From assembly GCA_949297775.1 (NCBI GenBank), contig CASFTM010000005.1, positions 26,605-90,604 of the forward strand: a stretch of 64,000 nt of DNA, read 5' to 3'. The stretch's first letter is position 1. Every line of letters begins with the position of its first letter. A program made the position numbers and the translations under genes. This document shows positions 1,997-58,156 of the stretch, in pieces. The notes under the pieces were generated by a model. That model saw nothing but the letters and a program-made list of their open reading frames with translations. It made no database searches and had not been told where the DNA came from. Source of the stretch: an uncultured bacterium. GTDB lineage: Bacteria; Elusimicrobiota; Elusimicrobia; Elusimicrobiales; Elusimicrobiaceae.

Positions 1997-2030
1997 AGCC
2001 AAAATTTATCAAAAAAAAAAAACAAATCAA
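1976..2030 (-). promoter_or_regulatory. Pilin start-site element copy 1: 16-bp IR, T12 tract, -35 TTGATT / -10 TAAATT
   Basis: Arms 1976-1991 and 2000-2015, spacer CTCATAGC, A12 at 2011-2022 on + strand; repeated at 4 other loci. Confidence 0.8.
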
Positions 2031-2188
2031 GGGGCGGGGCGCCCCTCCCCTCTTTTTACCCGTCAACGCGATTAGTTTAGGCCACACTGTTTGGGCACTG
2101 TCGCGCCCTTGCGTAACGGCCCAGAGGCTGGGCTCCCCACTCTATACCCGTTAGCGCGCTTAGCCTAGGCCACGCTGTTCCCGCACTG
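2031..2188. repeat. Pilin-upstream mosaic repeat (hairpin modules plus two 44-bp units)
   Basis: Segments shared with 14310-14379, 21379-21422 and 37508-37577. Confidence 0.75.
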
Positions 2189-2346
2189 CCGCTCTCCTAC
2201 GAAACAGCCCCAAACAGGGCCCCTGCCTACACCGCTCACACAACTGGCGGAACCGTACACTTATCCACAAACTGCGTAGTGCCCCATATAAAATGCCGCG
2301 GGGGCCTAGAGGCCCCGCAGACAAATGGTTATTGATAGCGTTTTGC

Positions 2347-2799: not shown

Positions 2800-4211
2800 A
2801 TGCTTTTCTCTAAGTTATACGCCGCGTTGAGAATTTTTTCCTCTTTCAAAATCGGTCCGTAGAACTGCACGCCGATCGGCAGGCCTTTTTCGTCCTTGCC
2901 GAACGGCACGCTGATCCCCGCCAGTCCGCCAATGTTACCCTGGCACGTGTACAAATCCGCCAGGTACAGCGCCAGCGGGTCCTCGTCGTGCTGGCCCAGT
3001 TTCAAAGCCGTCGTGGGCGAGGTCGGTGTCAGGAGGACGTCCACTTGCTCAAACGCTTTTTTAAAGTCATCGCGGATCAGTTCGCGCACTTTCATCGCTT
3101 TTAAAAAGCATTCTTCGTATCTTTCCGAAGTCAGCGCGTAAGTGCCGATAATCAAGCGTTTTTTTACTTCCAGCCCGAACGGCGCGCGGGAGCCTTCGTA
3201 ATAGGTGTTTAAATCTTTGGCTTCGTTGTCGGCATATCCGTAGCGGATGCCGTCATAACGGCCCAGGTTAGAGCTGGCCTCCGCGCTGGTAATGATATAG
3301 TAGCACGGCGCCGCATATTTAGCCAACGGGACTTCCACTTCCACCAGCTCAGCGCCCAATTCTTTTAAGCGCGCGGCGGCTTGGTTCATCTTTTCGGTAA
3401 TATCTTGGCCCAAGCCGTCCAAAAATCCTATGGGAAGGCCCACTTTTACGCCTTTTAACCCATCGGTGAACAAGGTGTCGTAGGCGGGCACGGGAGCGTC
3501 CAACGAAGTGGAATCGTGCACGTCTTTTCCGGCGATGACTTCCAACACTTTCGCCGAGTCCGCCACCGTGCGGGCCAAAATGCCCACTTGGTCGGCGCTG
3601 GACGCAAACGCAATCACGCCGTAGCGGGAAATGCGCCCGTAGCCGGGCTTAATGCCTACAACGCCGCAAAAGCCGGCCGGCTGGCGCACGGAACCGCCCG
3701 TATCCGTCCCAAGCGCAACGGGCACCATCCCCGCCGCCACCGCGGCTGCACTCCCGCCGGAAGAACCGCCGGGAACGCATTCCAAATTAACCGGGTTTTT
3801 AACGGGGCCGTACACGGAAGTTTGGTTCGTGCTGCCCATGGCAAATTCGTCCATATTGGCGCGCCCGATGATCACGGCGTCCGCCGCCAGCAGTTTTTCC
3901 ACCACGGTAGACGTATAAGACGCTACATAATTTTCCAGCATTTTGGAACAACAGGTGGCTTTGTGCCCTTTGTACAAAATGTTATCCTTAATCGCCACCG
4001 GCACGCCGGCTAAGGCGCCCAGTTTTTCGCCGCGGGCGCGTTTGGCGTCTATTTCTTTGGCGCGGGCCAACGCGTCGGCTTCAAACACTTCCACCAGCGC
4101 ATTAATAGAGGGGTTAAGTTCGGCAATTTTAGCCAGCGACTGGCGGGTAATCTGTTCGGCGGTTTGTTCGCCGGAAGAAACGGCTTTTACAATTTCCAAA
4201 GCGGTCATCAT
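2796..4211 (-). CDS. gatA: Asp/Glu-tRNA amidotransferase subunit A
   Basis: Amidase signature GGSSGGSAAAVAAG, GTDTGGSVRQP; next to gatC. Confidence 0.96.
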   Translation of the reverse strand: MMTALEIVKAVSSGEQTAEQITRQSLAKIAELNPSINALVEVFEADALARAKEIDAKRARGEKLGALAGVPVAIKDNILYKGHKATCCSKMLENYVASYTSTVVEKLLAADAVIIGRANMDEFAMGSTNQTSVYGPVKNPVNLECVPGGSSGGSAAAVAAGMVPVALGTDTGGSVRQPAGFCGVVGIKPGYGRISRYGVIAFASSADQVGILARTVADSAKVLEVIAGKDVHDSTSLDAPVPAYDTLFTDGLKGVKVGLPIGFLDGLGQDITEKMNQAAARLKELGAELVEVEVPLAKYAAPCYYIITSAEASSNLGRYDGIRYGYADNEAKDLNTYYEGSRAPFGLEVKKRLIIGTYALTSERYEECFLKAMKVRELIRDDFKKAFEQVDVLLTPTSPTTALKLGQHDEDPLALYLADLYTCQGNIGGLAGISVPFGKDEKGLPIGVQFYGPILKEEKILNAAYNLEKSI

Positions 4212-5017: not shown

Positions 5018-5539
5018 TTAGGAGTCTAAATTCATAGACTTACACAAATAATTGCCTAAATCGGTATAACCGGTGCATTCCTCTACATTGGGATAAGAAG
5101 AATGTTGCAGCCATAAACTGATGGTGGCATCGCATCCAGAAAAAAGGTTGCCTCCTATCCCGCGGGAATGATAAAAAATTCTTACGCGGTTGGCCCCGGC
5201 CACCGCATTGGGGCCGGTAATATTTGCCACATAAGCAAAAGGGCAATCCAACCGATGATCTGCTGAATCCAGTTCGCACACTTGGGTATAGTCTACATCC
5301 AAATCTTCCACCGGGATTGAATATTTTCCATTTGCCAAGTAATACATTTCCTGCGCCCGGCGAATACCCTGCGCCATTTGGTAATAATTCATTAGCCTCG
5401 TTTTCTGCACGGCGCGTTGGTATTGAGGAAGCGCTACCGCCGACAAAATACCAATGATTAAAACAACTACTAACAATTCTATTAGCGTAAATCCGGCGTT
5501 TTTCTTAGCCGGGAAGGGTTTTTGATAAATTTTGGTCAT
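5018..5539 (-). CDS. Type IV pilin-like protein, palindrome class, copy 2
   Basis: KNAG|[24 protein letters not shown]; C-terminal CTGYTDLGNYLC. Confidence 0.9.
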   Translation of the reverse strand: MTKIYQKPFPAKKNAGFTLIELLVVVLIIGILSAVALPQYQRAVQKTRLMNYYQMAQGIRRAQEMYYLANGKYSIPVEDLDVDYTQVCELDSADHRLDCPFAYVANITGPNAVAGANRVRIFYHSRGIGGNLFSGCDATISLWLQHSSYPNVEECTGYTDLGNYLCKSMNLDS

Positions 5540-5573
5540 AGCCAAAATTTATCAAAAAAAAAAAACGAGTCAA
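5519..5573 (-). promoter_or_regulatory. Pilin start-site element copy 2 (-35 TTGACT, T12, -10 TAAATT, IR)
   Basis: Arms 5519-5534 and 5543-5558, spacer GTCATAGC, A12 at 5554-5565. Confidence 0.8.
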
Positions 5574-5614
5574 GGCCCTTCAGCCAAGACCCGTTTTCAA
5601 ATAAAAAGACAGCC

Positions 5615-13678: not shown

Positions 13679-14173
13679 TTATTTGATGCCATACCAATAG
13701 CCGGACGCTTTTACTCCGGCTAATGCGGCACATTTTTTCGCGCCATTCCAGTTATACCCGAAACACACTACATCTGTTTGCCTTTTTTCTATTTTTAAAT
13801 AATACAGATGATCTCTTCTCACTGCAAACCCGACACCGGCCTCGCCCCCCTGTTTCAAGCGATAACTAAAATCCTTTGTCTGTTTAGCCCGATAGCCGTC
13901 CACTTCAATCTCTTCCCCGGGAACGGTAATATCCAGCTCGTCTATATTAGAAGCATAAACACCATTCGCCAAGTAATAGGATTCCTGGGCCTGCATAATT
14001 TTGCGCAACATGGCTACCGCTTCCAATCCGCGGGCTTTGTCTACCGCCCGCTGGTACTGCGGCAACGCCACCGCCGCCAAAATACCAATAATTAAAACGA
14101 CTACTAACAGCTCTATTAGCGTGAAACCGGCGTTTTTCCCCGCCGGGTAGGATTTTTGATAAATTTTGCTCAT
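13679..14173 (-). CDS. Type IV pilin-like protein, palindrome class, copy 3
   Basis: KNAG|[24 protein letters not shown]; divergent C-terminal domain with Cys pair. Confidence 0.9.
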
Positions 14174-14207
14174 ACGCAAAATTTATCAAAAAAAAAAAAC
14201 AAATCAA
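14153..14207 (-). promoter_or_regulatory. Pilin start-site element copy 3
   Basis: Arms 14153-14168 and 14177-14192, spacer CTCATACG, A12 at 14188-14199, TTGATT at 14202-14207. Confidence 0.8.
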
Positions 14208-14309
14208 CCCCCTTGCCGGGGGCAGGCTTTTTGGCCCCGGCCAAGGGGGTTGCCTAATACGGTACTTACGCTATTAGGGAACAACTGGTTGAGGATGTTC
14301 CTGCAAGGG

Positions 14310-14641
14310 GCCCAGCGCCTGGGCCCCCACTCTAGGCCCACCAACACGACTAATTGGGCCACACTGTTTTGCCGCACTACTAAAAAAGGAAAGCCGTTTC
14401 CGCTTATGTTGTTGTCGTGGTTGTAGCCGTTGCCGTTGCCGTGGTTATGGCCGTTTAACCGGCCCATTTGCCCCGTCTATAAAAAGCCTTCCAAGCGGAA
14501 AAGAAATTTTATTGTTTGAGCGCGGGGCAAAGCCCGCGCGAGTTATAAAATTTCCCGCTGGGAAGTGATTTTTATGGGGCCCTGGGCCGGGGCAGAGCCT
14601 GCCCTCCCATCTTTGGTACTTTTTCCCGCCGGAAAAAGTAC
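14310..14641. repeat. Pilin-upstream mosaic repeat with long hairpin module
   Basis: Homologous to 2119-2188, 37534-37770, 21331-21354 and 21452-21476. Confidence 0.8.
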
Positions 14642-21069: not shown

Positions 21070-21189
21070 TGTGGTAACGCTTGTAAACGGTATCTTCCCA
21101 AAACATCGGCCCATAGCCGGCGCATAAACGATTTGAAACGGCAGAAGAAGATTTACCCTCCTATATACCTACCATTGAACCCCGCTATT

Positions 21190-21269
21190 AGATATCCGGC
21201 GTTTTTCCCCCAGGGAGAAGGTTTTGATACATTTTGTGTATGAGCAAAATCTATCAAAAAACAAATCAA
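21190..21269 (-). pseudogene. Decayed pilin 5' end with degenerate start-site element (spacer inverted, tract of 6)
   Basis: GGAAAAACGCCGGA...CTAATAG remnant of KNAGFTLIE coding DNA; arms 21222-21236 and 21245-21259; rest of gene absent. Confidence 0.75.
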
Positions 21270-21476
21270 GGGGCGGGCCGGCGCTCTTTTTCGCCCTTTT
21301 TCTGGCGGCAGGAAAAGGGCTGTATAATTAGTGATTTTTGTTGCTCCCTGGGGCACCGGGCCGCTGTTCCCCTGCCTTTACCCGTTACCGCGATTCGTGG
21401 AGCCACCTTGCTTCCGCGTTGCCGCACGCTTGTCAGGTTCCCCCTTCTTGGATACTTTTTCCGCCGGAAAAAGTAT
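21270..21476. repeat. Pilin-upstream mosaic repeat, rearranged module order
   Basis: Modules shared with 37771-37819, 37747-37770, 2057-2100 and 14616-14641. Confidence 0.75.
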
Positions 21477-21497
21477 TGTTAAAAGGCATACGCATAA

Positions 21498-21551: not shown

Positions 21552-21699
21552 TTACTTCACCGCGTTGTAACCAGCTTCCAACGCTTTTTTATTTTTATGG
21601 CATTAAAATCCCCTGGGCTTTCGCTCCAGGGGATAAATCTTCGCCTTCTAACGCACTTACTTCACCGCGTTGTAACCAGCTTCCAACGCTTTTTTATTT
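21552..21699. repeat. 43-bp perfect direct repeat duplicating the 3' end of the oxidoreductase gamma gene
   Basis: 21552-21594 is identical to 21657-21699. Confidence 0.92.
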
Positions 21700-36957: not shown

Positions 36958-37473
36958 CTAAAAATGAAGCGCTTTGCACAACCGGCGGCCGCGGTCGGTT
37001 GTGGCATCGCAAGTGATTGCGTTTGGATTGGAAGAATTGGCAAAAAATACATGCGCGGTAGCAATACGGGAGGAAGAACAAGTTCCGTCACCGGGGCAAT
37101 AAATGGCCCGCACCTGGTGCTGTGCTAAAGCGGGTTGTATTGACCCGTGGATATTATCCAGCTGTCCGTTTTCGCAGCGTATTTGGCTGGAATCATTGGC
37201 AAGAAGTTGACACGCCGAAGAATAATCCACATCCAAGTCCGCAAGCTTGATTGTATACGATCCGTTTGCCATATAATAAACTTCCTGCGCTTTGCGGATA
37301 TCCGACGCCATTTGGATGAGCGTCATCATACGAGATTTGTCCACCGCCAGTTGGTATTGCGGAAGCGCCACCGCCGACAAAATACCAATGATTAAAACAA
37401 CCACTAACAGCTCTATTAACGTAAATCCGGCGTTTTTCCCCGCCGGGAAGGATTTTTGATAAATTTTGGTCAT
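36958..37473 (-). CDS. Type IV pilin-like protein, palindrome class, copy 4
   Basis: KNAG|[24 protein letters not shown]; C-terminal CDATTDRGRRLC. Confidence 0.9.
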   Translation of the reverse strand: MTKIYQKSFPAGKNAGFTLIELLVVVLIIGILSAVALPQYQLAVDKSRMMTLIQMASDIRKAQEVYYMANGSYTIKLADLDVDYSSACQLLANDSSQIRCENGQLDNIHGSIQPALAQHQVRAIYCPGDGTCSSSRIATAHVFFANSSNPNAITCDATTDRGRRLCKALHF

Positions 37474-37507
37474 AGCCAAAATTTATCAAAAAAAAAAAAC
37501 AAATCAA
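37453..37507 (-). promoter_or_regulatory. Pilin start-site element copy 4
   Basis: Arms 37453-37468 and 37477-37492, spacer GTCATAGC, A12 at 37488-37499. Confidence 0.8.
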
Positions 37508-37819
37508 GGGGCGAGCCGCCCCTCCCCTCTTTTTACCCGTCAACACGATTAGCTTAGGCCACACTGCTCCTGCAATGTTGCACTGTTTCAAAAAGGAAGT
37601 TTTTCCGCTTGTATTTATGTCGTAGCCGTGGTTGTTGCCGTTTATCCGCCCCTTTAGAGCCGTCTACAAAAAGCCTTTCAAACGGATTAGAAATTTTATT
37701 GTTTGAGCGCGGGGACCGCGTGAGTTATAAAATTTCCCGTTTGAAAGTGATTTTTGTGGCTCCCTGGGGCGGCGCTCTTTTTCGCCCTTTTTCTGGCGTC
37801 AGAAAAAGGGCTATATAAT
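37508..37819. repeat. Pilin-upstream mosaic repeat (most complete copy)
   Basis: Contains modules also seen at about 2.0, 14.3-14.6 and 21.3 kb. Confidence 0.8.
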
Positions 37820-37955
37820 GAAGCTGTGCCCTTACGCAACAGCCCCGAGCCGGGGCTCCCCCTGGGCCGCCAACAATAAATAAAACCGCCGGGTGCGAAT
37901 GCCGGCGGTTTATAGGAGACCCCCTCGTCCCTGGCTTTAGGAAGAGGAAGCAAAT

Positions 37956-38726
37956 TTATTTGGCGGCTAATAAATTATCGTGTATACCAGTGTGGAAAAC
38001 AGCCAGATGCTCTTCCGACACGCCGCCCCAAAAGGACACCGGCAACCGCCGGGGAACCTCATTCACCAAAGCAACCGCTTTCCCTTGGTAAAAGAAAGGC
38101 TCCCCTTTTTGGAGCGTATTTTTTACGCCCGCCAGCCGGCTGGCACGCGGCGAAACAACCCCCCGATTTACAAAAAATTCCAATAATTTTTGCTGTACGC
38201 CTTTTCCAAAAACCTCATAAAGCGTTTCTCCTTCCGGCACAGCCGCCACCGGCACACCTTGTAACCCTTCCGTCAACCGGGAAGAAACAGCCACTCCGGC
38301 AAAATTTCCATTTATGCTTACGCTTCCCGCCGGGCCGCTCCCGCGGCGGCCATTGGCTAATTGTACACGTACTTTTTTTAAGGAAAATCCACTCGGTGCC
38401 TGGGCACACGAAGCCGTGGTAAGGATGCGGTTTTCCCCCGCCAACAATACCCCGCGGCAGGCCGTCGTTTGGCGCTCCGTTTTAACCAACACATCCCTGA
38501 ATCCGGGCCGGCGGGGCCGGCGGACGGTATCGCTTAAATAAACCGGTTTTTCCCATTCAAATACAAGCGTTGCCACCGCTTGTTCCTGGCGGTGCAGTTT
38601 TTCCGCCTCTACAGCCTGCCGGGTAAGCGCCGGCAGCATGCCGGCAGATTCCTGGGCAGATACATTTCCAGCGGCGCAAAGGGCAACGGTTGCGAACAAC
38701 ATTTTAATATACTGATTCCTTTTCAT
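37956..38726 (-). CDS. Secreted hypothetical protein, possible degenerate trypsin-like fold
   Basis: Signal peptide; CRGVLL...ILTTASC and GEPFFYQGKAV resemble trypsin motifs lacking the catalytic His and Ser. Confidence 0.6.
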   Translation of the reverse strand: MKRNQYIKMLFATVALCAAGNVSAQESAGMLPALTRQAVEAEKLHRQEQAVATLVFEWEKPVYLSDTVRRPRRPGFRDVLVKTERQTTACRGVLLAGENRILTTASCAQAPSGFSLKKVRVQLANGRRGSGPAGSVSINGNFAGVAVSSRLTEGLQGVPVAAVPEGETLYEVFGKGVQQKLLEFFVNRGVVSPRASRLAGVKNTLQKGEPFFYQGKAVALVNEVPRRLPVSFWGGVSEEHLAVFHTGIHDNLLAAK

Positions 38727-57790: not shown

Positions 57791-58156
57791 TTAGAATTTC
57801 AATCCTGCTTCTCTGGCGGAATCCGCAAGCGCTTTGATTCTGCCGTGGTACACGCGCCCGCCGCGGTCAAACATCACTTCGCTGATGCCTTTTTCCAACG
57901 CTTTTTTGGCGATGGCGGCACCCAACGCTTTGGCGGCTTCTACGCTTTTGGCGGAGGTGTCAAACTTGCCTTCAAATTCTTTGGACAACGTCGTAGCAGA
58001 CACCAAGGTGCTGTGGGTGTTGTCGTCAATGATTTGGGCGTAAATGTATTTCAAGCTTCTGTATACGGAAAGGCGCGGGCGGTGGGCACCGTTTTTCAAA
58101 AGATGCCCGCGGCTGCGGTCCTTTCTGAACTGATATCTTTCTTGTTTAGTGGCCAT
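57791..58156 (-). CDS. rplR: 50S ribosomal protein L18
   Basis: [21 protein letters not shown]. Confidence 0.97.

What the first reader, a model, noticed from the sequence alone, without database searches (positions are those of the whole stretch)
37676..37746. About 70-nt stem-loop with compensatory base changes between two copies
Seen: copy 37676-37746 pairs TTTCAAACGG/CCGTTTGAAA, AAATTTTAT/ATAAAATTT and GCGCGG/CCGCGT. Copy 14489-14564 pairs TTCCAAGCGG/CCGCTGGGAA, AAATTTTAT/ATAAAATTT and GCGCGGG/CCCGCGC. Two outer-stem pairs switch (T-A to C-G, A-T to G-C), and one change gives a G-U pair on the + strand. Inferred: selection on secondary structure, either as an RNA read from the + strand or as a folded single-stranded DNA site.
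Basis: partly seen in the sequence, partly recalled or inferred. Interest (0 to 1): 0.66.

Follow-up and report, generated by a model that had tools for sequence, protein, structure and literature searches.

The report
Origin-like DNA hairpin repeat beside pilin genes
The stem-loop is real and is one copy of a strand-specific hairpin repeat, about 125 bases long, whose conserved tip matches the sites where single-stranded plasmids and phages start copying their second strand, yet here it sits many times in a gut bacterium's chromosome just upstream of pilin-like genes.

Summary
The 70-nt stem-loop is the middle of a 125-132-nt multi-helix hairpin (37646-37772 and 14459-14590), followed by a T-run and a second hairpin.

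Scale and structure:
- At least 17 copies occur per genome in chicken-gut Elusimicrobiales.
- In 46 copies, 98.6% of cells pair and 12 of 36 pairs show double compensatory changes.
- The claimed G-U pair is actually an A.G mismatch.

Context: 35 of 52 copies lie 250-600 nt upstream of, and antisense to, one pilin-like gene family.

Wider distribution: the tip, YT-GTTTGAGCG-N-AGCGAGTT, recurs on top of unrelated stems. It is found in other bacterial lineages, a rolling-circle plasmid, Vibrio inoviruses, a microvirus and prophages. Only the + strand folds well.

Resemblance to known sites: the short form of the tip holds a GCGNAGC DNA mini-hairpin, and the copies hold a 12/13 match to the ssoA RSB core. 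The CS-6-like TAGCGA occurs in relatives but not in the two window copies.

Best reading (0.45): a folded single-stranded-DNA priming or RNA-polymerase entry site of the single-strand-origin kind, spread as a chromosomal repeat. Rivals are a + strand RNA, or a purely selfish palindromic repeat. No transcript or biochemical data exist.

The parts
37646..37772 (+). Copy B, full long hairpin. H1 CCGCCCC/GGGGCGG. H2 GAGCC/GGCTC. H3 ACAAAAA/TTTTTGT. H5 GAAATTTTAT/ATAAAATTTC. Internal loop TGTTTGA / GAGTT. Apical stem GCGCGG-GGA-CCGCGT.
   Evidence: Sequence; RNAalifold consensus and pair counts on 46 copies; covariance model score 158.6 bits.
14459..14590 (+). Copy A, full long hairpin. H1 CCGGCCC/GGGCCGG. 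H2 GCCCC/GGGGC. H3 ATAAAAA/TTTTTAT. H4 TTCCAAGCGG/CCGCTGGGAA with one A.G mismatch. H5 as in copy B. Apical stem GCGCGGGGC-AAA-GCCCGCGC.
   Evidence: Sequence; fold; covariance model score 144.2 bits.
37700..37726 (+). Conserved tip of copy B: TGTTTGA-GCGCGG-GGA-CCGCGT-GAGTT. This is the long form. In relatives the middle is replaced by GCG-N-A-GC, a GNA-triloop DNA mini-hairpin flanked by tandem G.A pairs.
   Evidence: The core GTTTGAGCG..GCGAGTT is invariant across families. The mini-hairpin literature is PMC13037366.
37690..37702 (+). GAAATTTTATTGT, which with the preceding A reads AGAAATTTTATTG. It matches the RSB core AGAAAATTTATTG of ssoA-type origins at 12 of 13 positions. The same sequence is at 14502-14514 in copy A.
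   Evidence: Comparison with pC194, pT181 and pE194. The RSB sequence is quoted in PMC4598088.
37773..37811 (+). T-run CGCTCTTTTT, then hairpin 2 GCCCTTTTTCTG-GCGT-CAGAAAAAGGGC (37784-37811).
   Evidence: Sequence. The same two-part layout is seen in other lineages, plasmids and prophages. A downstream TTTG-N-T[AT]CTTT motif is present in 51 of 89 paired tips.
14606..14641 (+). T-rich run CCCATCTTTG, then hairpin 2 GTACTTTTTCC-CGCC-GGAAAAAGTAC (14616-14641). An extra GC hairpin at 14591-14604 separates it from the long hairpin.
   Evidence: Sequence; repeat family D12.
36958..37479 (-). Pilin-like gene downstream of copy B. The prepilin N-terminus reads M..KIYQKSFPAGKNAG|FTLIELLVV. The + strand is its template strand.
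   Evidence: ORF list. 35 of 52 copies have such a gene in this geometry. The pilin family is the only protein family that recurs near copies.
13679..14179 (-). Pilin-like gene downstream of copy A.
   Evidence: ORF list.
37500..37645 (+). Shared upstream mosaic between the pilin start and the hairpin. It holds a GC hairpin, module M1 (CCCCTCTTTTTACCCGTCAACACGATTAGCTTAGGCCACACTG), a small GGAAG..TTCC hairpin, and imperfect (GYY GTK)n repeats. The equivalent in copy A is 14200-14458.
   Evidence: Pairwise alignment; repeat families D1, D4 and D6; upstream listing for all copies.

Best explanation
The element is a strand-specific, two-part DNA hairpin of the single-strand-origin kind. It resembles the sso of rolling-circle plasmids and the complementary-strand origins of ssDNA phages, and it has multiplied as a chromosomal repeat.

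Proposed mechanism (inferred):
- When the + strand is single-stranded, it folds into a hairpin of about 125 nt.
- The tip is a compact mini-hairpin stacked on tandem G.A pairs.
- A conserved host enzyme binds this structure: RNA polymerase as at ssoA, or primase as at phage G4.
- The enzyme makes a short RNA on the + strand template, so synthesis runs leftwards in the window.

Context in this genome: the unit became part of the shared upstream region of one pilin-like gene family and was copied along with it. Any RNA started on the folded + strand would therefore run into the pilin gene.

What is shown: the structure, the strand polarity, the copy number, the gene association, the sequence resemblance to RSB/CS-6 and to the GCGNAGC mini-hairpin, and occurrence of the core on the single-stranded form of ssDNA replicons.

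What is inferred: that an enzyme binds it, that it primes or transcribes, and that the chromosomal copies are still active.
For: - Structure under selection: 98.6% of cells paired, 12 pairs with double changes, 159 double-change cells against 44 in shuffles. The variant subfamily compensates H5. Under the same tip there are 31 distinct stems.
- Strand-specific: G.T 22 against A.C 7 and 9 against 1. The + strand fold is more stable in 38 of 50 family copies and by 10-20 kcal/mol in other lineages.
- Tip: in short-form relatives it is GC-GNA-GC with N free, inside TGAG/CGAG, the 5'-Y-GA-R-3' context I recall as favouring sheared tandem G.A. GCGNAGC is an extraordinarily stable DNA mini-hairpin reported at ssDNA priming sites of G4, St-1, alpha3, ssiA and N4 promoters (PMC13037366).
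- ssoA resemblance: AGAAATTTTATTG against RSB AGAAAATTTATTG, 12/13. TAGCGAGTT is identical to the pT181 CS-6 region. pE194 has GAGCGTAAGCGA (PMC4598088; PMC8860593; PMC5703833).
- The same core sits at the tip of a long + strand hairpin in the 3.4-kb plasmid pJ10_4, whose ORF matches RepD-like_N (25.5 bits, cut-off 25) and weakly Rep_trans (22.5 bits, below the 29.6 cut-off).
- It lies on the coding (which in these phage groups is the packaged) strand in non-coding stretches: in a Vibrio inovirus contig (L112) between the morphogenesis genes and a cargo module, and in a gut microvirus in a gap of about 1 kb. About ten further Vibrio-type contigs carry the same core.
- There are 99 loci in IMG/VR against roughly 7 expected by my estimate.
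- No Rfam family matches.
Against: - The two window copies lack the TAGCG hexamer. Their tip is an extended GC stem with G[GGA]C and AAA loops.
- RSB and CS-6 are 40-55 nt apart in real ssoA (pT181, pC194, pE194; PMC4598088) but about 8 nt apart here.
- The RSB-like A/T stem is not universal across families, so part of the resemblance may be coincidence.
- The element is chromosomal and multi-copy. It also occurs inside dsDNA prophages (P2-like and Mu-like), where a single-strand origin has no obvious role.
- GC skew places the + strand on the leading-strand template in this window, which is not the strand exposed for long during replication.
- No biochemical or transcript evidence exists. The only RNA data were unstranded, low-depth contigs.
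- One IMG/VR family (L102/L127) has the core inside an ORF and is probably a chance match.
Confidence: 0.45

Rival explanations
1. A structured RNA read from the + strand: a multi-copy small RNA, or an RNA element transcribed divergently from the pilin gene. The long hairpin with its conserved internal loop (possibly a kink-turn-like G.A motif) would bind a protein, and the T-run after it would end the transcript.
For: - G.U pairs favour the + strand.
- A T5-6 run follows the basal GC helix by 3-5 nt on the + strand only.
- The loop has the order C-stem, bulge, G-A, NC-stem, typical of kink-turns (sequence; inference).
- A metatranscriptome contig covers 37716-37819.
Against: - No sigma-70-like promoter lies upstream on the + strand. 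In inverted-pair loci only 117-250 nt of promoter-less repeat separates two copies.
- No Rfam match.
- Loops are of the DNA GNA type rather than GNRA or UNCG.
- The same core lies on the packaged ssDNA strand of phages and in a plasmid's hairpin.
- In other lineages the orientation relative to neighbouring genes is random.
- The RNA contig is unstranded, about 3.6x deep, and may be DNA.
Confidence: 0.2
2. A selfish palindromic repeat (MITE, ERIC or Correia-like) with no sequence-specific cellular role. Arm-to-arm correction in a long palindrome keeps the arms complementary. Any effect, such as acting as a terminator, insulator or recombination hot spot in the pilin upstream mosaic, would be incidental.
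For: - At least 17 exact-core copies in one MAG, many at contig ends.
- Modules occur in mosaic order and are absent from otherwise homologous pilin upstream regions.
- Inverted pairs and chimeric or truncated copies exist.
- It is inserted in prophage intergenic regions.
- Family a is a palindrome of about 230 bp.
- Canonical copies are almost purely Watson-Crick, with 1.2% G.U.
Against: - No target-site duplication or defined termini were found.
- No transposase or reverse transcriptase recurs near copies.
- The most conserved part is the unpaired tip, not the ends. That 20-nt tip is identical across phyla on unrelated stems, which arm-to-arm correction cannot explain.
- Strand asymmetry is clear in divergent families.
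Confidence: 0.2
3. A cis-regulatory leader of the pilin mRNA, read from the - strand. The hairpin would be the first structure of a long 5' UTR that must read through two terminator-like hairpins before the start codon (attenuation or antitermination).
For: - Fixed position and orientation upstream of pilin genes in 35 of 52 copies.
- On the - strand, two hairpin-plus-T-run sites lie between the element and the ATG.
Against: - Wobble pairs favour the opposite strand.
- A promoter-like TTGATT-N16-TAAATT sits directly before the ATG, so the hairpin would not be in the mRNA.
- The element is missing from other members of the same pilin family.
- It occurs without pilin genes elsewhere.
Confidence: 0.07

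Closest known systems
ssoA-type single-strand origins of rolling-circle plasmids (palA of pT181, pC194, pE194, pLS1/pMV158)
   Same: - An imperfect, orientation-specific hairpin of about 130-160 nt that works only in the single-stranded form.
- An RSB-like AGAAA(A/T)TTTATTG in the stem.
- A TAGCGA/TAGCGAGTT at the tip in short-form relatives.
- Recognition by a host enzyme would explain the cross-phylum conservation.
   Different: - Chromosomal, with at least 17 copies per genome, and not next to a Rep gene or dso.
- RSB-like and CS-6-like parts are about 8 nt apart instead of 40-55.
- The two window copies have no TAGCG hexamer.
- A second hairpin preceded by a T-run is part of the unit.
- The conserved core is longer (YTGTTTGAGCG-N-AGCGAGTT) than the CS-6 hexamer as quoted (TAGCGT; PMC4598088).
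Complementary-strand origins and ssi signals of ssDNA phages and plasmids that contain GCGNAGC/GCGNNAGC DNA mini-hairpins (G4, St-1, alpha3 oric; RSF1010 ssiA)
   Same: A GC-GNA-GC mini-hairpin with a free middle base at the tip of a larger hairpin, on the strand that exists as ssDNA. Found here in inovirus and microvirus genomes on the packaged strand.
   Different: Those sites are single-copy, primase-dependent and have no sequence similarity outside the mini-hairpin. Here the flanking TTGA/GAGTT and the two-part layout are conserved, and the enzyme is unknown.
Frpo-type single-stranded DNA promoters of conjugative plasmid leading regions, and the M13/f1 minus-strand origin
   Same: A folded template strand upstream of genes that are read from that same strand. 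The M13 origin has two hairpins (from my own knowledge of that literature).
   Different: No -35/-10 mimic could be identified. The TGnTACTTT in hairpin 2 is replaced by a compensated GCCC/GGGC in copy B. The core is absent from 5,426 E. coli genomes and their plasmids.
Palindromic intergenic repeats (ERIC/IRU, Correia elements, BIMEs, bcr1-type MITEs)
   Same: Imperfect palindromes of about 125 bp in intergenic DNA, many copies, mosaic combination with other modules, and compensatory changes.
   Different: The conserved part is the tip rather than the ends. No target duplication was found. The same tip occurs across phyla and in ssDNA replicons. There is strand asymmetry. No ERIC-like sequence is present, and the core is absent from E. 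coli.

Membership tests
ssoA-type single-strand origin | RSB sequence (TTATGCCGAGAAAATTT, core GAGAAAA) in the loop-distal stem | tested here: inconclusive
   The window copies have AGAAATTTTATTG against pC194 AGAAAATTTATTG, a 12/13 match. The upstream TTATGCCG part is absent. In other families the stem at this place is unrelated.
ssoA-type single-strand origin | CS-6 hexamer TAGCG(T/A) in the terminal loop | tested here: not met
   Short-form relatives have TAGCGA, CAGCGA or AAGCGA at the tip. Both window copies replace it with a GC stem (GCGCGG-GGA-CCGCGT and GCGCGGGGC-AAA-GCCCGCGC). For this reason I do not file the window copies as ssoA.
ssoA-type single-strand origin | Large imperfect hairpin (about 160 nt) that folds on one strand only | tested here: met
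   127-132 nt, six helices. The + strand is favoured.
ssoA-type single-strand origin | Lies on a rolling-circle replicon, on the displaced strand | tested here: not met
   The window is chromosomal, with housekeeping genes and tRNAs. No Rep gene recurs near copies. It is met only for relatives: pJ10_4, an inovirus and a microvirus.
ssoA-type single-strand origin | RNA-polymerase-made primer RNA and orientation-dependent conversion of ssDNA to dsDNA | not testable with these tools
   This needs plasmid ssDNA accumulation assays or in vitro priming.
GCGNAGC DNA mini-hairpin priming signals | 5'-GC GNA GC-3' with a C-G closing pair and a sheared G.A | tested here: inconclusive
   Exact in short-form family members and all cross-lineage hits (GAGC-GNA-GCGAG). 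Window copy B has a GGA loop but with a G-C closing pair. Copy A has an AAA loop.
MITE | Defined terminal inverted repeats flanked by a target-site duplication, with a related autonomous element | tested here: not met
   No duplication was seen at the edges in the Elusimicrobiales copies or in family a. No transposase recurs in 91 loci. Presence/absence between paralogous upstream regions looks like recombination at GC hairpins.
Integron attC site | R''/R' core sites (RYYYAAC...GTTRRRY) at the base, in cassette arrays next to an integrase | tested here: not met
   No such boxes lie at the hairpin base. The copies are 23 kb apart among housekeeping genes.
Any Rfam RNA family | Covariance-model match at the gathering score | tested here: not met
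   Only two tRNAs in the window. Nothing below E = 0.5 in 37400-38000. Nothing over the element in 12 related loci.
Intrinsic terminator | GC-rich stem followed within 0-2 nt by a T-run | tested here: inconclusive
   A T5-6 run follows the basal GC helix by 3-5 nt on the + strand. The scan did not call it. In a P2-like prophage the element sits inside a late operon in sense orientation.

The most novel reading that the evidence does not exclude
YT-GTTTGAGCG-N-AGCGAGTT on a long hairpin, followed by a T-run and a second hairpin, is a previously unrecognised, pan-bacterial recognition structure for a conserved host enzyme on single-stranded DNA. In this Elusimicrobiales clade it would have been domesticated as a single-strand-dependent promoter or priming site on the template strand of a phase-variable pilin-like gene family. 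Expression of those chromosomal genes would then respond to the DNA being single-stranded or extruded.
Probability: 0.12. Interest if true: 0.85.

Novelty: new variant of a known kind. Interest (0 to 1): 0.6.

Why it matters
Single-strand origins are known as single-copy parts of small plasmids, ICEs and ssDNA phages, and they are poorly catalogued.

A 20-nt core shared by inoviruses, a microvirus, a rolling-circle plasmid, prophages and chromosomal repeats from several phyla would have three uses:
- A searchable signature for complementary-strand origins.
- A pointer to a host enzyme that reads a folded DNA tip.
- A case where such a site has spread through a chromosome next to a surface-protein gene family.

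It also explains why these genomes assemble badly at pilin loci.

Tried and rejected
- Rfam at gathering and at permissive thresholds found nothing.
- Sigma-70 promoter scans on both strands around both copies gave zero hits. By eye I tried sigma-54, sigma-32 and extended -10 readings. TGnTACTTT in hairpin 2 looked like an extended -10, but copy B replaces TAC with a compensated CCC/GGG, so I dropped it.
- I considered a leader peptide or small ORF across the (GYY GTK)n repeats and the hairpin. It has no conserved start codon and the frame breaks between subfamilies.
- RNA evidence: two run searches and two read-laying runs gave only unstranded contigs a few-fold deep.
- blastn of family b and of the P2-like prophage unit against plasmids and phages gave no match.
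- E. coli genomes gave only chance hits in hsdS.
- A literature search for the core sequence returned only vector primers. Searches on Elusimicrobia pilins returned nothing relevant.
- The primary ssoA papers were not held.
- Rejected on anatomy from the sequences read here, compared with what I know of these families:
  - IS200/IS605 ends.
  - Integron attC sites.
  - Retrons.
  - Hammerhead and hairpin ribozymes.
  - An IHF site. This also rests on IHF being absent from Firmicutes, and families a and b are only guessed to be Firmicutes-like.
  - DNA uptake sequences.

Full report
**1. What is there**

The two stem-loops are at the stated coordinates, and the three stems pair as written.
- Each folds far better than dinucleotide shuffles on either strand, with z from -4.8 to -6.8 and 0 of 200 shuffles as good.
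- The two compensated switches in the outer stem are real.
- The change called a G-U pair is an A.G mismatch on the + strand (C.U on the - strand). It is left unpaired in the predicted fold of copy A.
- Homology between the copies runs over about 340 nt, not 70.

**2. The hairpin is larger than reported**

An exact 20-mer from the conserved part found 49 loci in one-genome-per-species bacterial assemblies. All were chicken- or bird-gut Elusimicrobiales MAGs (Candidatus Avelusimicrobium and relatives). There are 17 copies in one MAG, and many sit at contig ends.

Aligning 46 non-identical copies shows six helices:

| Part | 5' arm / 3' arm |
|---|---|
| H1 | CCGSCCC / GGGSCGG |
| H2 | GNNCC / GGNNC |
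| H3 | AYAAAAA / TTTTTRT |
| H5 | GAAATTTTAT / ATAAAATTTC |
| Internal loop | TGTTTGA / GAGTT (asymmetric) |
| Apical stem | GC-rich, variable length, or reduced to GCG-N-A-GC |

In the window the full hairpins are 37646-37772 and 14459-14590.

On the named structure:
- 98.6% of cells pair, against 89.2% after shuffling partners (0/500).
- 159 cells carry changes on both sides, against 44 (0/500).
- 12 of 36 pairs have double changes.
- Sliding partners by 1-3 columns drops pairing to 35-59%.

A covariance model found four further copies of a variant subfamily. In these even the invariant H5 changes to GGTATTTTAT/ATAAAATACC, two compensated pairs, while the loop TTGTTTGAGCG...CGAGTT stays. The structure is therefore under selection.

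**3. Surroundings**

- In 35 of 52 copies, a gene of one pilin-like family (M..KIYQKS.PAGKNAG|FTLIELL) lies on the opposite strand, with its N-terminal motif 250-610 nt to the left. Of the other 17 copies, 11 have too little flank to judge.
- Two of the remaining six have a different gene in the same geometry, an ABC-F ATPase and a membrane protein. Two more (L030, L042) are remnants of a pilin upstream region. L043 has a pilin gene further away, at -839.
- Four loci (L006, L010, L020 and L043) hold an inverted pair, a variant copy and a canonical copy with their 5' ends facing.
- The pilin family is the only protein family that recurs near copies. No transposase or reverse transcriptase does.
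- The space between hairpin and pilin start is a mosaic of other hairpin modules. Other members of the same pilin family in the window (starts near 1995 and 5550, plus a truncated one near 21240) have these modules in other combinations without the long hairpin.
- A T-run and a second hairpin follow the long hairpin on the + strand, at 37784-37811 and 14616-14641.

**4. Which strand folds**

- Within the family almost every pair is Watson-Crick. G.U outnumbers A.C by 22 to 7 cells (10 against 6 pairs), which is suggestive only.
- The + strand fold is the more stable in 38 of 50 copies.
- The decisive data came from more distant relatives, described next.

**5. The tip is shared far beyond Elusimicrobiales**

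A metagenome scan for GTTTGAGCG-N(2-30)-GCGAGTTATAAA returned 42 loci.
- Besides Elusimicrobia-like contigs, three unrelated repeat families of 26-40% GC carry the same tip. Their flanking genes are unrelated and they lack pilins.
- The tip in these families is TTTAT-Y(T)-GTTTGAGCG-NA-GCGAGTT-ATAAA, on top of long hairpins whose stems share no sequence.
- In these families the + strand fold is 10-20 kcal/mol more stable than the - strand fold.
- An IMG/VR scan for GTTTGAGCGNAGCGAGTT gave 99 loci, where I estimate about 7 by chance.
- Over all 121 unique tip-bearing sequences held, 89 have at least 7 of 9 flanking positions paired.
  - These use 31 different stem words.
  - G.T outnumbers A.C by 9 to 1.
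  - 51 of the 89 are followed within 200 nt by TTTG-N-T[AT]CTTT, the start of hairpin 2.
- The two-part layout also appears on a Bacteroidota plasmid.
- The universal part is therefore about 20 nt, YT-GTTTGAGCG-N-AGCGAGTT. It sits at the tip of a strand-specific hairpin, often with a T-run and a second hairpin.

**6. What the tip resembles**

- In the short form the centre reads GC-GNA-GC with a free middle base. It sits inside TGAG/CGAG, which I recall as the favoured context (5'-Y-GA-R-3') for sheared tandem G.A pairs.
- GCGNAGC is the 'mini-hairpin DNA' of Hirao and colleagues. Its Tm is 70-76 C for any N, and it is reported at ssDNA priming sites of phages G4, St-1 and alpha3, in RSF1010 ssiA and in N4 early promoters (PMC13037366).
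- A blastn search with the 41-nt core against annotated plasmids and phages gave few, weak hits, but they are telling:
  - The 3.4-kb Bacillus cereus plasmid pJ10_4. The core is at the tip of a long hairpin (+ strand -73.8, - strand -57.9 kcal/mol). Its ORF matches the RepD-like_N and, weakly, Rep_trans rolling-circle initiator families.
  - A Vibrio inovirus.
  - A gut microvirus with three copies of GAGCGGAGCGA in a 1-kb non-coding gap.
- In the microvirus and in an inovirus contig (L112, Zot plus Rep_trans), the core is on the coding strand. In these phage groups that is the packaged single strand, a point I take from my own knowledge. It lies in a non-coding stretch. About ten further Vibrio-type contigs carry the same core.
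- Direct comparison with characterised ssoA origins shows:
  - The RSB core AGAAAATTTATTG (pC194), against AGAAATTTTATTG here, 12/13.
  - The CS-6 region TAGCGAGTT (pT181), identical to the short-form tip.
  - GAGCGTAAGCGA in pE194.
- According to the literature held, sso hairpins fold only in the single-stranded state and are orientation-specific. RSB is needed for RNA polymerase binding, and CS-6 in the loop ends the primer RNA (PMC5703833; PMC8860593; PMC4598088).

**7. Best explanation and its limits**

I read the element as a folded single-stranded-DNA site of the single-strand-origin kind that has multiplied as a chromosomal repeat (confidence 0.45).

In this clade it was captured by the common upstream region of a pilin-like gene family. 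The + strand is the template strand of the pilin gene, so any RNA begun on the folded strand would run toward that gene.

Shown: structure, polarity, copy number, gene association, sequence resemblance, and occurrence on ssDNA replicons.

Inferred: enzyme binding, priming or transcription, and activity of the chromosomal copies.

Points against:
- Both window copies are the long form, without the TAGCG hexamer.
- The spacing between RSB-like and CS-6-like parts differs from real ssoA.
- The A/T-rich RSB-like stem is not universal.
- The unit also sits in dsDNA prophages, between gpM and gpL of a P2-like prophage and in a Mu-like one.
- GC skew puts the + strand on the leading-strand template here.

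Because a defining feature (CS-6) is not met in the window copies, and the replicon context is not met, I say it works like an sso. I do not say that it is an ssoA.

**8. Rivals**

| Rival | Confidence | For | Against |
|---|---|---|---|
| + strand RNA | 0.2 | Wobble bias and the T-run | No promoter, no Rfam family, DNA-type loops, ssDNA-replicon occurrences, random orientation to genes in other lineages |
| Purely selfish palindromic repeat | 0.2 | Copy number, mosaicism, prophage insertions | Conservation of the unpaired tip across phyla, strand asymmetry |
| - strand leader of the pilin mRNA | 0.07 | Position upstream of pilin genes | Polarity of the wobble pairs; promoter-like TTGATT-N16-TAAATT directly before the ATG |

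RNA-seq could not decide. Only unstranded contigs of a few-fold depth were available.

**9. Novelty**

- Single-strand origins and GCGNAGC mini-hairpins are known.
- I did not find any of the following described: a 20-nt core shared across phyla, a two-part layout, chromosomal multi-copy spread, or the link to a pilin-like gene family.
- The primary literature was only partly accessible.
- I rate it a new variant of a known kind, interest 0.6.

Noticed in passing
window 37451-37530; also 14150-14225, 1965-2047, 5510-5575: The start codon of each pilin-like gene of this family lies in the loop of a 12-bp perfect palindrome (GATAAATTTTGG / CCAAAATTTATC). Just upstream is a T12-13 tract between promoter-like hexamers TTGATT and TAAATT, which end about 7 nt before the ATG. 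There is no Shine-Dalgarno sequence. This looks like a leaderless, possibly phase-variable (homopolymer-length) promoter, preceded by a GC hairpin.
   Followed up: partly
window 21160-21480: A truncated pilin 5' fragment with only T6 in the tract. It is followed by the same modules in another order: hairpin 2, then the 3' end of a long hairpin (AGTGATTTTTGTTGCTCCCTGGGGC), then module M1. The junctions fall in GC-rich hairpins, which suggests module shuffling by recombination there.
   Followed up: partly
window 2030-2200; 14300-14365; 37507-37575; 21345-21420: Module M1 is a GC hairpin followed by CCCC.CTCT..ACCCGT.A.C.CGATTAG...GGCCACACTG. It recurs upstream of pilin-like genes, twice in tandem at 2030-2200, and its hairpin also shows compensatory changes. 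Its role is unknown.
   Followed up: no
window 37618-37645 and 14395-14458; L008, L010, L019, L046: Between M1 and the long hairpin lies an imperfect 3/6/12-nt repeat, (GYY GTK)n on the + strand, whose length varies greatly between copies. Examples are (GTTTCC)4 in L010 and (GTCGTGGCTGTG)n in L008. There is no conserved reading frame.
   Followed up: partly
window 21552-21594 and 21657-21699: Two perfect 43-nt direct repeats 105 nt apart (TTACTTCACCGCGTTGTAACCAGCTTCCAACGCTTTTTTATTT), with a weaker third copy at 57869.
   Followed up: no
L046 3659-3803: A chimeric copy: the 5' half of a canonical hairpin joined at the tip to the 3' half of the variant subfamily. It lies next to a normal copy, which is evidence for recombination between copies.
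   Followed up: no
L094 (Dulem virus 267, record 3118-4121): This gut microvirus has an unusually long non-coding gap of about 1 kb. It holds three copies of GAGCGGAGCGA, one within the full core GTTTGAGCGGAGCGAGTT, on the packaged strand.
   Followed up: partly
L098 4200-4528: In a P2-like prophage the whole two-part unit sits between the small terminase (gpM) and head completion (gpL) genes, in sense orientation. It is therefore tolerated inside a late operon.
   Followed up: partly
L112 860-2635: The Vibrio inovirus that carries the core also carries an AAA_21/RloB gene pair (OLD/Abi-like cargo) next to the non-coding stretch with the core.
   Followed up: no
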